A stretch of DNA of 64,000 nt from Escherichia coli. Lineage in GTDB: Bacteria > Pseudomonadota > Gammaproteobacteria > Enterobacterales > Enterobacteriaceae. Of the stretch, positions 24,501-27,500 are shown in pieces. The position numbers were made by a program. Location: the NCBI RefSeq assembly GCF_003334405.1, contig NZ_QOWM01000001.1. One strand, written 5' to 3'. How positions within the stretch are numbered: the first letter of the stretch is position 1; every line of letters starts with the position of its first letter.

Positions 24501-27500
24501 CATGGTGCACGCCAGGTTTGTTGCACTATCGTGGTGCATTGAAATGCATACTTAAGCATTTTTAATGAAAAATAATACGTCTAACGGGGCGGGATATTTT
24601 GCCTTGATGGTCAATTTTATGGCACGATAAGTGTAACAAACCTGTAAATATTCCCTATAAAAAGACTGTCAGTTGAGGACATTATGAAAAAACTGGTGCT
24701 ATCGCTCTCTCTGGTTCTGGCCTTCTCCAGCGCAACTGCGGCGTTTGCTGCGATTCCGCAAAACATCCGCATCGGTACCGACCCGACCTATGCGCCATTT
24801 GAATCAAAAAATTCACAAGGCGAACTGGTTGGCTTCGATATCGATCTGGCAAAGGAATTATGCAAACGCATCAATACGCAATGTACGTTTGTCGAAAATC
24901 CGCTGGATGCGTTAATCCCGTCCTTAAAAGCGAAGAAGATTGACGCCATCATGTCATCGCTTTCCATTACGGAAAAACGTCAGCAAGAAATAGCCTTCAC
25001 CGACAAACTGTACGCTGCCGATTCTCGTTTGGTGGTGGCGAAAAATTCTGACATTCAGCCGACAGTCGAGTCGCTGAAAGGCAAACGGGTAGGCGTATTG
25101 CAGGGCACCACCCAGGAGACGTTCGGTAATGAACATTGGGCACCAAAAGGCATTGAAATCGTCTCGTATCAGGGGCAGGACAACATTTATTCTGACCTGA
25201 CTGCCGGACGTATTGATGCCGCGTTCCAGGATGAGGTCGCTGCCAGCGAAGGTTTCCTCAAACAACCTGTCGGTAAAGATTACAAATTCGGTGGCCCGTC
25301 TGTTAAAGATGAAAAACTGTTTGGCGTAGGGACCGGCATGGGCCTGCGTAAAGAAGATAACGAACTGCGCGAAGCACTGAACAAAGCCTTTGCCGAAATG
25401 CGCGCTGACGGTACTTACGAGAAATTAGCGAAAAAGTACTTCGATTTTGATGTTTATGGTGGCTAATCGCCATCGGTGAAAGAAAGCCCGCTCCCTTCGG
25501 GTAACCGGAGGGAGACAAGAGGCGGTAATTCACCACACACGACAGGACAGGCAGCATGTTGTATGGGTTTTCAGGTGTTATTTTACAGGGTGCGCTCGTC
25601 ACGCTGGAGCTGGCTATCAGCTCTGTAGTGCTCGCTGTAATCATCGGTTTAATTGGCGCTGGCGGTAAGCTCTCGCAAAATCGGCTTTCGGGGCTGATTT
25701 TCGAAGGGTACACCACGCTGATTCGTGGCGTGCCGGACTTAGTGTTGATGCTGCTGATTTTCTACGGTTTGCAGATTGCGCTAAACACGGTGACGGAGGC
25801 GATGGGCGTCGGGCAGATTGATATCGATCCGATGGTCGCTGGTATTATCACTCTCGGTTTTATCTACGGTGCTTATTTTACCGAAACGTTCCGTGGTGCT
25901 TTTATGGCAGTGCCGAAAGGACATATAGAGGCGGCGACGGCGTTCGGTTTTACTCGTGGGCAAGTGTTTCGGCGGATCATGTTTCCGTCGATGATGCGTT
26001 ACGCCCTGCCAGGCATTGGCAACAACTGGCAGGTGATCCTCAAATCTACCGCACTGGTTTCGTTACTCGGCCTGGAAGATGTGGTCAAAGCCACCCAACT
26101 GGCAGGCAAAAGTACCTGGGAACCGTTCTATTTCGCCATCGTCTGTGGCGTGATTTACCTGGTTTTCACCACTGTTTCCAATGGTGTGCTGCTGTTCCTT
26201 GAGCGCCGCTACTCCGTGGGTGTGAAGAGGGCTGACCTGTGATCGAAATCTTACATGAATACTGGAAACCGCTGCTGTGGACCGACGGTTATCGCTTTAC
26301 TGGTGTGGCGATCACTCTGTGGCTGCTTATTTTGTCGGTAGTGATAGGCGGAGTCCTGGCGCTGTTTCTGGCGATTGGTCGTGTCTCCAGTAATAAATAC
26401 ATCCAGTTTCCAATCTGGTTATTTACCTATATTTTTCGCGGTACGCCGCTGTATGTTCAGTTGCTGGTGTTCTATTCCGGCATGTACACGCTTGAGATTG
26501 TTAAGGGAACCGAATTCCTTAACGCTTTCTTCCGCAGTGGCCTGAACTGTACCGTGCTGGCGCTGACGCTTAACACCTGCGCTTACACTACCGAGATTTT
26601 TGCTGGGGCAATCCGTTCGGTTCCGCATGGGGAAATTGAAGCCGCCAGAGCCTATGGCTTCTCGACTTTTAAAATGTATCGCTGCATTATTTTGCCTTCT
26701 GCGCTGCGTATTGCGTTACCGGCATACAGCAACGAAGTGATCCTGATGCTGCACTCTACTGCGTTGGCATTTACTGCCACGGTGCCGGATCTGCTGAAAA
26801 TAGCCCGCGATATTAACGCCGCCACGTATCAACCTTTTACCGCCTTCGGCATTGCCGCGGTGCTCTATTTAATCATCTCTTATGTCCTGATCAGCCTCTT
26901 TCGCAGAGCGGAAAAACGCTGGTTGCAGCATGTGAAACCTTCTTCAACGCACTGAGAATACGATGTCCGAGAATAAATTAAACGTTATCGATTTGCACAA
27001 ACGCTACGGCGAACATGAAGTGCTGAAAGGGGTATCACTGCAAGCGAATGCCGGAGATGTAATAAGCATCATCGGATCGTCGGGATCGGGGAAAAGTACC
27101 TTTCTGCGCTGCATTAACTTCCTCGAAAAACCGAGTGAAGGGTCGATCGTGGTCAATGGCCAGACGATCAATCTGGTGCGCGACAAAGACGGTCAACTCA
27201 AAGTCGCCGATAAAAATCAACTGCGCTTACTGCGCACACGCCTGACGATGGTATTCCAGCACTTCAATCTCTGGAGCCATATGACGGTGCTGGAAAACGT
27301 CATGGAAGCGCCGATTCAGGTGTTGGGCCTGAGCAAGCAGGAAGCGCGCGAGCGGGCGGTGAAGTATCTGGCAAAAGTCGGGATAGACGAACGTGCGCAG
27401 GGGAAATATCCGGTGCATCTTTCCGGCGGTCAGCAACAGCGTGTTTCTATCGCGCGGGCGCTGGCGATGGAACCGGAAGTTTTACTGTTTGATGAACCTA

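What the first reader, a model, noticed from the sequence alone, without database searches (positions are those of the whole stretch)
24503..24635. NtrC-type enhancer palindromes plus a -24-like element upstream of hisJ
TGCACT-N5-GGTGCA at 24522-24538 is a near-consensus NtrC dyad, with an extra GGTGCAC half-site at 24504-24510. About 95 bp downstream is TGGCAC-N5-GTGTA (24620-24635), which has a perfect sigma54 -24 box but a degenerate -12 (GT instead of GC). Together they suggest nitrogen-regulated activation of hisJQMP, possibly through a weak sigma54 promoter or through NtrC acting on a sigma70 promoter.
Basis: partly seen in the sequence, partly recalled or inferred. Interest (0 to 1): 0.4.

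Follow-up and report, generated by a model that had tools for sequence, protein, structure and literature searches.

The report
Known NtrC enhancer, sigma-70 hisJ promoter
This is the control region of the E. coli histidine-transport operon: the nitrogen-regulator (NtrC) binding sites are real and already documented, but the supposed sigma-54 "-24 box" is part of the ordinary sigma-70 promoter and only a decayed remnant of a sigma-54 promoter that sister genera still carry.

Summary
The window is E. coli K-12, and the finding lies in the 220-bp argT-hisJ spacer. All three motifs are at the stated coordinates.

- **NtrC sites.** The dyad TGCACTATCGTGGTGCA (24522-24538) is the only such match in 64 kb. 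It falls inside a published NtrC ChIP-seq peak from nitrogen-starved cells (Brown 2014, 23.7-fold). The extra GGTGCA (24504-24509) is the conserved right half of a second NtrC site 29 bp upstream.
- **The -24-like element.** TGGCAC-N5-GTGTA is not supported as a working sigma-54 promoter in E. coli.
  - Sigma-54 ChIP-seq shows no site here at high or low stringency.
  - RpoN genomic SELEX shows no peak here.
  - The mapped hisJ start (window 24635) fits a sigma-70 promoter: -35 TTGCCT, 18-bp spacer, extended -10 TGgCACGAT. TGGCAC therefore overlaps that -10.
  - A paper on Salmonella annotates the orthologous sequence as predicted but not active.
- **New here.** In 77 Enterobacteriaceae loci, 40 carry a canonical TGGCAY-N6-TGC at this position, below conserved NtrC sites. 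All four Escherichia loci read GTGTA.

How NtrC acts at this site in E. coli remains unresolved. Interest is low and the finding is essentially already known.

The parts
24493..24509 (.). Upstream, weaker NtrC site (ATGATCATCATGGTGCA). The right half GGTGCA (24504-24509) is perfect; the left half is degenerate.
   Evidence: It has 4 mismatches to TGCACC-N5-GGTGCA. GGTGCA at this column is at least 90% conserved in 63 Enterobacteriaceae sequences. Other genera carry a 1-2-mismatch dyad at the same place, 29 bp upstream of the main site. It lies inside the NtrC ChIP-seq peak.
24522..24538 (.). Main NtrC dyad, TGCACTATCGTGGTGCA.
   Evidence: It has 1 mismatch to the consensus and is the only such match in the window. 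It lies within Brown 2014 NtrC ChIP-seq peak 12, 23.7-fold, window 24473-24553. It is conserved across the family; Salmonella diarizonae has TGCACCATTTTGGTGCA with 0 mismatches.
24543..24560 (.). Putative ARG box 1 (ArgR operator), AATGCATACTTAAGCATT.
   Evidence: It has 4 mismatches to WNTGAATWWWWATTCANW, and the core ATGCATAnTTAAGC is at least 90% conserved. The literature describes two 18-bp ARG boxes 3 bp apart, 17 bp upstream of the hisJ -35. This assignment reproduces that spacing. The assignment is mine, not read from a footprint.
24564..24581 (.). Putative ARG box 2, AATGAAAAATAATACGTC.
   Evidence: It has 4 mismatches to the ARG-box consensus and starts 21 bp after box 1. It ends 17 bp before TTGCCT, matching.
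24599..24604 (+). Sigma-70 -35 hexamer, TTGCCT.
   Evidence: TTTGCC is invariant in the representative alignment and at least 90% conserved in 63 sequences. It sits 18 bp upstream of the -10 implied by the mapped start.
24620..24628 (+). Extended -10 of the sigma-70 hisJ promoter: TG (-15/-14), G, then CACGAT (-12 to -7).
   Evidence: The transcription start at 24635 places T24628 at -7 and A24624 at -11. ATGGCAC(G/A)(A/T)T is conserved even in genera whose -12 GC is gone, for example Enterobacter TGGCACATT. hisJQMP is reported as sigma-70-dependent. An RpoD holoenzyme SELEX peak lies in this spacer.
24620..24635 (+). Sigma-54 -24/-12-like element, TGGCACGATAAGTGTA. I read it as a relic of an ancestral sigma-54 promoter; T24634 replaces the -12 C.
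   Evidence: Weight-matrix score is 12.98 bits. The orthologous position reads TGGCACGATAACTGCA in Citrobacter and has the canonical TGC in 40 of 77 loci. No sigma-54 ChIP or SELEX signal is reported in E. coli.
24635..24635 (+). Mapped hisJ transcription start (+1).
   Evidence: Kim 2012 start-site sequencing gives NC_000913.2 position 2424859, minus strand, 22 reads, 49-nt 5' UTR. The printed upstream sequence ends ...TGGCACGATAAGTGTA. Cells were mid-log in M9 glucose with NH4Cl.
24675..24679 (+). Shine-Dalgarno GAGGA of hisJ.
   Evidence: Read from the sequence. Invariant in the alignment.
24684..25466 (+). hisJ coding sequence, first gene of hisJQMP.
24513..24533 (.). Left arm of an Escherichia-specific inverted repeat, CAGGTTTGTTGCACTATCGTG. 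It overlaps the left half of the main NtrC dyad.
   Evidence: It pairs with 24623-24644; score 33 against 16.2 +/- 2.3 in shuffles, reached by 0 of 300.
24623..24644 (.). Right arm of the inverted repeat, CACGATAAGTGTAACAAACCTG. It covers the -10 hexamer, +1 and the '-12' bases.
   Evidence: The only mismatched position pairs G24523 with T24634, the '-12' base.

Best explanation
The segment is the regulatory region of hisJQMP. In order it contains:
- two NtrC sites, a weak one at 24493-24509 and a strong one at 24522-24538;
- two ArgR boxes, at about 24543-24581;
- a sigma-70 promoter with -35 TTGCCT (24599-24604), an 18-bp spacer, an extended -10 TGgCACGAT (24620-24628) and +1 at 24635.

Shown or documented: NtrC occupies the sites in nitrogen-starved cells, and transcription in ammonium-replete medium starts at 24635.

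Inferred: TGGCAC-N5-GTGTA is the orthologue of a real-looking sigma-54 promoter that many sister genera keep. In Escherichia it has lost the -12 C (T24634). TGGCAC persists because it doubles as the extended -10 of the overlapping sigma-70 promoter.

Inferred, with lower confidence: in E. coli the NtrC-dependent rise of hisJQMP does not come mainly from this relic. It comes mainly from sigma-54 transcription at argTp (23597-23612) reading through into hisJQMP. The strong NtrC sites, 0.9 kb downstream of argTp, are available as an enhancer for that closed complex.
For: NtrC binding:
- The ChIP-seq peak covers both sites.
- The coordinate mapping is confirmed twice: the argT sigma-54 motif centre 2425890 equals window 23597-23612, and hisJ 2424028-2424810 matches.

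Sigma-70 promoter:
- The start at 24635 is supported by the printed upstream sequence.
- The literature states hisJQMP is sigma-70-dependent, with ArgR boxes 17 bp upstream of the -35. My box assignment reproduces that spacing.
- TTTGCC and ATGGCACGAT are the most conserved promoter blocks.
- An RpoD SELEX peak lies in this spacer.

No sigma-54 occupancy:
- Bonocora 2015 high- and low-stringency lists do not include the site.
- Shimada 2021 RpoN SELEX, with or without NtrC, does not include it.
- The Salmonella orthologue TGGCACGATAGTCGCA is footnoted as 'not an active promoter', citing Ames and Nikaido 1985.

Relic status:
- Of 77 loci, 40 have TGGCAY-N6-TGC, 18 have GC without the T, 15 have no GC (including all 4 Escherichia), and 4 have no element.
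- Buttiauxella, Dryocola, Shimwellia, Mangrovibacter and Enterobacter sp. R1 keep a consensus -24/-12 with a different spacer sequence and no TTTGCC -35. That argues for selection on sigma-54 recognition there.

argTp route:
- Sigma-54 is bound at argTp.
- Several sources treat argT-hisJQMP as one transcription unit.
- No convincing terminator follows argT.
- E. coli has no NtrC dyad with 3 mismatches or fewer in the 265-bp argT-ubiX spacer. The database sites there have 4 and 5 mismatches.
- ChIP enrichment at argT was 5.4-fold against 23.7-fold at hisJ.
Against: - The element scores within the range of confirmed sigma-54 sites. Confirmed promoters pspA and pspG also have GT at -12, and hydN has GTGAA.
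- The start-site and sigma-54 ChIP data come from ammonium-replete M9 cultures. There the overlapping sigma-70 promoter could exclude sigma-54, so a nitrogen-starvation-specific sigma-54 start at about 24646 has not been excluded.
- Brown 2014 states that RNA polymerase, with or without rifampicin, was found at the promoter regions of all 21 NtrC-bound units and that all are up-regulated. This suggests local initiation at hisJ during starvation.
- The NtrC sites sit in the classic upstream-activator geometry for the local element. Their centres are about -116 and -145 from a hypothetical sigma-54 start.
- For the argTp route: an independent NtrC ChIP-seq found a peak 292 bp upstream of argT. 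An argTp-lacZ fusion at the lac locus still responded to glnK deletion. The downstream sites are therefore not required for argTp regulation.
- NtrC genomic SELEX at a 40% cut-off did not list this spacer.
Confidence: 0.55

Rival explanations
1. TGGCAC-N5-GTGTA is a weak but functional sigma-54 promoter. NtrC-P bound at 24493-24538 activates it by looping during nitrogen limitation, giving a second hisJ start near 24646 that overlaps the sigma-70 promoter.
For: - Weight-matrix score is 12.98 bits, rank 4 of 127,968 positions.
- GT at -12 occurs in the confirmed pspA and pspG promoters.
- The NtrC sites are about 95-125 bp upstream, in canonical geometry.
- The orthologous element is near-consensus in many genera.
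- NtrC sites are retained in Escherichia.
- Polymerase is reported at the hisJ promoter region, and the operon is up-regulated, in starved cells.
Against: - No sigma-54 ChIP-seq peak appears even at a 5-fold lower threshold.
- No RpoN SELEX peak appears, with or without NtrC.
- The only mapped start is 24635.
- The better-matching Salmonella orthologue is reported as not active.
- The canonical GC is absent.
Confidence: 0.2
2. NtrC modulates the sigma-70 hisJ promoter without sigma-54. For example, it could displace or re-phase ArgR, whose first box begins 4 bp after the dyad. That would relieve arginine repression of the shared HisQMP membrane component when arginine is used as a nitrogen source.
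For: - The dyad ends at 24538 and ARG box 1 starts at 24543. An alternative ARG-box register (24533-24550) overlaps the dyad.
- ArgR repression of hisJ is weak and reported to work by a mechanism other than steric exclusion.
- NtrC sites persist in lineages that lack the -12 GC.
- From my own knowledge, untested here: NtrC and ArgR sites are also combined at astCADBE.
Against: - To my knowledge, enteric NtrC is not known to activate sigma-70 promoters.
- No binding-competition data exist.
- The ARG-box positions are my assignment.
Confidence: 0.12
3. NtrC binds here but has no regulatory consequence in E. coli. The sites would be a not-yet-decayed leftover of the ancestral sigma-54 arrangement. 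hisJ up-regulation in starvation would come from ArgR derepression, ppGpp or argT read-through alone.
For: - Sigma-54 is absent from the local element.
- The -12 has decayed.
- The left half of the upstream site is degenerate in E. coli.
Against: - The main dyad and the GGTGCA half-site are invariant between E. coli, cryptic Escherichia clades and E. albertii, while neighbouring spacer bases vary.
- They are conserved across genera that lack the -12 GC.
Confidence: 0.1

Closest known systems
Salmonella typhimurium dhuA (hisJQMP) control region, studied by Ames and Nikaido 1985 (EMBO J 4:539)
   Same: It is the orthologous argT-hisJ spacer. It has an NtrC dyad at the same place (TGCACCATTTTGGTGCA in S. 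diarizonae). It has the same TGGCACGAT... element, and that -24/-12-like sequence was already noticed and judged inactive.
   Different: The Salmonella -12 keeps GC: TCGCA in LT2 and CCGCA in arizonae and diarizonae. Escherichia has GTGTA. Escherichia also lacks 21 bp between the dyad and ARG box 1, and has a lineage-specific inverted repeat. I could not read the 1985 paper; its content is known here only through its title and the footnote.
glnAp2-type NtrC enhancer with a sigma-54 promoter
   Same: There are two NtrC sites about 30 bp apart, roughly 100-150 bp upstream of a TGGCAC-N5-xTGxx element. The glnAp2 site positions of about -140 and -108 are from my own knowledge.
   Different: The -12 GC is missing, no sigma-54 occupancy is reported, and the mapped start does not fit a sigma-54 promoter.
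Overlapping sigma-70 and sigma-54 promoters (glmY and glmZ in Salmonella; argT, chaC, mdfA and patA in E. coli)
   Same: The sigma-70 -10 region and the sigma-54 recognition sequence occupy the same DNA.
   Different: In those cases sigma-54 binding is demonstrated. Here it is not detected in E. coli, though the dual arrangement probably holds in Citrobacter and similar genera.
astCADBE control region (NtrC sites, ArgR sites, sigma-54 promoter)
   Same: The order of elements is the same: NtrC enhancer, then ArgR boxes, then a -24/-12 element. Both belong to arginine and nitrogen scavenging. This is from my own knowledge and was not tested here.
   Different: At astC the sigma-54 promoter is confirmed and bound. 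At hisJ in E. coli it is not.

Membership tests
NtrC (GlnG) enhancer / upstream activating site | 17-bp dyad matching TGCACC-N5-GGTGCA | tested here: met
   24522-24538 has 1 mismatch. It is the only such match in 64 kb, against 0.05 expected.
NtrC (GlnG) enhancer / upstream activating site | Two or more sites about three helical turns apart, to allow oligomerisation | tested here: inconclusive
   The second site at 24493-24509 has a perfect right half and a degenerate left half, with 4 mismatches. The centre-to-centre distance is 29 bp. The same two-site layout with better matches occurs in other genera.
NtrC (GlnG) enhancer / upstream activating site | Occupancy by NtrC in vivo under nitrogen limitation | tested here: met
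   The published ChIP-seq peak 2424941-2425021 maps to window 24473-24553, 23.7-fold (mapping). It was not listed by NtrC SELEX at a 40% cut-off.
NtrC (GlnG) enhancer / upstream activating site | Activates a sigma-54 closed complex in cis | not testable with these tools
   There are two candidate targets: the local relic at 24620-24635, with no reported sigma-54 occupancy, and argTp at 23597-23612, which is sigma-54-bound. Genetics is needed to decide.
Sigma-54 (-24/-12) promoter | GG at -24 and GC at -12 with fixed spacing | tested here: not met
   GG is present at 24621-24622. Positions 24633-24634 read GT, not GC.
Sigma-54 (-24/-12) promoter | Binding of sigma-54 holoenzyme (closed complex) independent of activator | tested here: not met
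   The site is absent from 135 high-stringency and 149 low-stringency ChIP-seq sites and from RpoN SELEX. Caveat: the ChIP cultures were nitrogen-replete.
Sigma-54 (-24/-12) promoter | Transcription start about 11-13 nt downstream of the -12 C | tested here: not met
   The mapped start is 24635, 1 nt after the '-12' base. No start-site data from nitrogen-starved cells were available.
Sigma-54 (-24/-12) promoter | Expression dependent on rpoN and an enhancer-binding protein | not testable with these tools
   This needs 5' end mapping or reporter assays in rpoN and glnG mutants.
Sigma-70 extended -10 promoter | -35-like hexamer, 16-19-bp spacer, TGn plus a -10 hexamer with A-11 and T-7, and a start about 7 nt downstream | tested here: met
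   TTGCCT, then 18 bp, then TGgCACGAT, then 6 bp, then +1 at 24635. The blocks are conserved. A simple consensus scan misses it because the hexamer is non-canonical.
Sigma-70 extended -10 promoter | Experimental sigma-70 dependence | tested here: met
   [quoted passage not shown] An RpoD holoenzyme SELEX peak lies in the argT-hisJ spacer.

The most novel reading that the evidence does not exclude
An NtrC enhancer has outlived its promoter. In Escherichia the local sigma-54 promoter lost its -12 C and was taken over by an overlapping sigma-70 promoter, yet the NtrC sites stay under selection. They would have been re-used in one of two ways:
- as a gene-distal enhancer, 0.9 kb downstream, for the argT sigma-54 promoter, which lacks a good upstream NtrC site in Escherichia, Salmonella and Citrobacter;
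- as an antagonist of ArgR at the sigma-70 promoter.

The Escherichia-specific 21/22-nt inverted repeat joins the dyad to the -10/+1 region, and its single mismatch is the -12 base. It could be a trace of the remodelling event, for example templated quasi-palindrome mutation.
Probability: 0.2. Interest if true: 0.5.

Novelty: already known. Interest (0 to 1): 0.25.

Why it matters
For annotation, this corrects a tempting misreading. A perfect TGGCAC next to strong NtrC sites is not enough to call a sigma-54 promoter, because here it is the extended -10 of a sigma-70 promoter.

The remaining open point is modest. One of the better-bound NtrC sites in the E. coli chromosome has no demonstrated target promoter. 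The comparative series ranges from sigma-54-only genera, through genera with both promoters, to genera where only the sigma-70 promoter looks intact. It offers a natural system for studying how an enhancer-dependent promoter is replaced while its enhancer persists.

Tried and rejected
- **Papers not held.** Ames and Nikaido 1985, Zimmer 2000, and Reitzer and Schneider 2001 could not be opened by PubMed or PMC id. Their content is used only as quoted by other papers, or is marked as my own knowledge. Caldara 2007 was never looked up; it is used only as quoted.
- **Unproductive searches.** Full-text searches for 'hisJp' and 'dhuA' returned nothing useful.
- **Klebsiella start site.** The K. pneumoniae hisJ start was not in the stored part of the Kim 2012 tables.
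- **Consensus promoter scan.** It found no sigma-70 promoter in 24400-24720. I do not take this as evidence of absence, because the mapped start implies a non-canonical extended -10.
- **Shimada 2014 promoter.** Their suggested TTGAAA-16-TTTAAT (24539-24566) is rejected as the main promoter. It is not conserved outside Escherichia and does not fit the mapped start.
- **My first sigma-70 guess.** TTGATG-16-GATAAG is rejected for the same reasons.
- **Terminator after argT.** Only a weak 5-bp stem at 24578-24591 was found, and it is not conserved.
- **RNA fold.** The strong fold of 24455-24640 (z = -4.1) is explained by the inverted repeat rather than by a terminator.
- **Downstream sites as sole argTp enhancer.** This idea was weakened by an independent ChIP peak at -292 of argT and by a responsive argTp-lacZ fusion.
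Full report
**Identity of the locus.** The window is E. coli K-12. Window 23600-25500 is 100% identical to MG1655 and is present in all 5,426 complete E. coli genomes. The genes are ubiX, argT (23681-24463), hisJ (24684-25466) and hisQMP. The finding lies in the 220-bp argT-hisJ spacer.

**Observation.** All motifs are at the stated coordinates. The dyad TGCACTATCGTGGTGCA (24522-24538) is the only match to TGCACY-N5-RGTGCA in 64 kb, against 0.05 expected. It is also the only 17-mer with 1 mismatch or fewer to the 12 specified consensus bases. TGGCAC-N5-GTGTA is unremarkable by mismatch counting: 33 hits against 43.7 expected. 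I built a weight matrix from the 42 intergenic sense sigma-54 sites of Bonocora 2015. With it the element scores 12.98 bits, rank 4 of 127,968 positions, inside the range of confirmed sites.

**Coordinate mapping.** Published NC_000913.2 coordinates convert as g = 2449494 - w. Three checks agree:
- Bonocora's argT sigma-54 motif centre, 2425890, equals the centre of TGGCATAAGACCTGCA at 23597-23612.
- Kim 2012 lists hisJ as 2424028-2424810.
- Aquino 2017 gives a peak '-292' from argT at 2426105.

**NtrC binding is already documented.**
- Brown 2014 NtrC ChIP-seq in nitrogen-starved cells lists peak 12, 'hisJQMP', at 2424941-2425021, 23.7-fold. That maps to window 24473-24553 and covers both the dyad and the upstream GGTGCA.
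[quoted passage not shown] I could not open that paper.
- S. diarizonae carries TGCACCATTTTGGTGCA at the orthologous place, a perfect match.

**The -24-like element is not a demonstrated sigma-54 promoter.**
- Sigma-54 ChIP-seq found argT but nothing upstream of hisJ, among 135 high-stringency and 149 low-stringency motif-bearing sites.
- RpoN holoenzyme SELEX, with or without NtrC, reports only the argT-ubiX spacer.
- Kim 2012 maps the hisJ start to 2424859, which is window 24635. There were 22 reads and a 49-nt leader, and the printed upstream sequence ends ...ATGGCACGATAAGTGTA.

**The start site implies a sigma-70 promoter.** With +1 at 24635, CACGAT (24623-24628) is the -10 hexamer, with A at -11 and T at -7. 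TG (24620-24621) forms an extended -10. TTGCCT (24599-24604) is the -35, 18 bp upstream. This agrees with the Charlier laboratory's statement that hisJQMP has a sigma-70 promoter, with two ARG boxes ending 17 bp upstream of the -35. My best ARG-box pair, 24543-24560 and 24564-24581, reproduces that 17-bp gap exactly.

**Caveat on conditions.** The start-site data and the sigma-54 ChIP data both come from ammonium-replete M9 cultures.

**Comparative evidence (new here).** I collected 80 Enterobacteriaceae loci with conserved argT-hisJ synteny and analysed 77 spacers.
- Conserved blocks are: GGTGCA (24504-24509), the main dyad (especially its right half), the ARG-box cores, TTTGCC, ATGGCACGATAA, and the ribosome-binding region.
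- At the '-12' position the weighted majority is CTGCA.
- 40 of 77 loci have TGGCAY-N6-TGC, 18 have GC without the preceding T, 15 have no GC, and 4 lack the element. All four Escherichia loci read GTGTA.
- Most Citrobacter have TGGCACGATAACTGCA, and Kluyvera and Pseudocitrobacter have the near-identical ...CTGCT; both score 18-19 bits.
- Buttiauxella, Dryocola, Shimwellia, Mangrovibacter and Enterobacter sp. R1 have a consensus -24/-12 with a different spacer sequence and no TTTGCC -35. These look like sigma-54-only promoters.
- Enterobacter, Leclercia, Lelliottia and Silvania keep TGGCACATT and TTTGCC; of these Leclercia, Lelliottia and four of the seven Enterobacter loci still have GC without the preceding T, while Silvania and three Enterobacter loci have lost it.

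From this I infer two things. A sigma-54 promoter below NtrC sites is the widespread and probably ancestral arrangement. The invariance of TGGCAC in Escherichia-like genera is better explained by its role as the sigma-70 extended -10.

Within Escherichia the whole stretch 24610-24683 and the dyad are invariant between E. coli, cryptic clades and E. albertii, while neighbouring spacer bases vary.

**How NtrC acts here is unresolved.** Points favouring the local relic:
- the canonical enhancer geometry;
- the weight-matrix score;
- GT at -12 in the confirmed pspA and pspG promoters;
- Brown's statement that polymerase was found at all 21 NtrC-bound promoter regions and that all are up-regulated in starvation.

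Points favouring action through argTp:
- Sigma-54 is bound at argTp.
- argT-hisJQMP is treated as one operon by several sources.
- No convincing terminator follows argT.
- E. coli, Citrobacter and Salmonella have no NtrC dyad with 2 mismatches or fewer within 400 bp upstream of argT. Many other genera have one about 200 bp upstream of the promoter.
- The database NtrC sites upstream of argT have 4 and 5 mismatches.
- ChIP enrichment at argT was 5.4-fold against 23.7-fold at hisJ.

Points against a required role for the downstream sites:
- An independent ChIP-seq peak lies at -292 of argT.
- An argTp-lacZ fusion at the lac locus remains responsive.

A third possibility is interplay with ArgR, because the dyad abuts ARG box 1.

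**Verdict.** The NtrC enhancer is real but already known. The sigma-54 promoter reading is not supported for E. coli, where the element is best read as the sigma-70 extended -10 lying over a decayed sigma-54 promoter. Novelty: already known. Interest: low.

Noticed in passing
window 24513-24533 and 24623-24644: A 21/22-nt imperfect inverted repeat, CAGGTTTGTTGCACT-ATCGTG / CACGATAAGTGTAACAAACCTG. It links the left half of the NtrC dyad to the -10/+1 region. Its score is 33, against 16.2 +/- 2.3 in dinucleotide shuffles, reached by 0 of 300. It is present in E. coli and E. albertii and in none of 18 other genera tested. Its single mismatch pairs G24523 with T24634, the '-12' base. It could be an RNA stem in argT read-through transcripts or a trace of templated mutation.
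   Followed up: partly
window 23416-23680 (argT upstream); loci L003-L082: The argT sigma-54 promoter TGGCATAAGACCTGCA (23597-23612) is identical in many of the genera examined. Escherichia, Citrobacter and Salmonella have no NtrC dyad with 2 mismatches or fewer within 400 bp upstream of argT. Enterobacter, Buttiauxella, K. pneumoniae and others have one at about -285 from the ATG. The database sites in E. coli (window centres 23433 and 23540) have 4 and 5 mismatches.
   Followed up: partly
window 23535: Kim 2012 maps the main argT start in ammonium-replete medium to NC_000913.2 position 2425959, which is window 23535, with 303 reads. That is about 60 bp upstream of the sigma-54 promoter, so a separate and presumably sigma-70 argT promoter exists there.
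   Followed up: no
between window 24538 and 24539, relative to L007-L024 and L022/L023: Escherichia lacks about 21 bp (two helical turns) that Salmonella, Citrobacter and most other genera have between the main NtrC dyad and ARG box 1. In several genera that segment holds a third NtrC-like half-dyad (TGCACCnnnnTGG).
   Followed up: partly
window 24662-24679: Just upstream of the Shine-Dalgarno sequence, most genera have GACAGTCTGTTGAGGA, whereas Escherichia has GACTGTCAGTTGAGGA. Both contain a 9-nt palindrome (ACAGTCTGT and ACTGTCAGT), and the two substitutions are mutually compensating.
   Followed up: no
window 2415-2431 (-), 13260-13276 (-), 43219-43235 (-): Three other positions score as high as the hisJ element, or within 0.01 bits of it, with the sigma-54 weight matrix: CTGGCACAACATCCGCA at 14.0 bits, CTGGCGCAACGTCTGCT at 13.5 bits, and CTGGCACCTGACCTGCT at 13.0 bits. 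I did not check them against the intragenic sigma-54 ChIP list.
   Followed up: no
L062 (Pluralibacter MAG), about -66 from the hisJ ATG: TGGCACGATAACTGTT carries the same C-to-T change at the -12 position as Escherichia, apparently arising independently.
   Followed up: no
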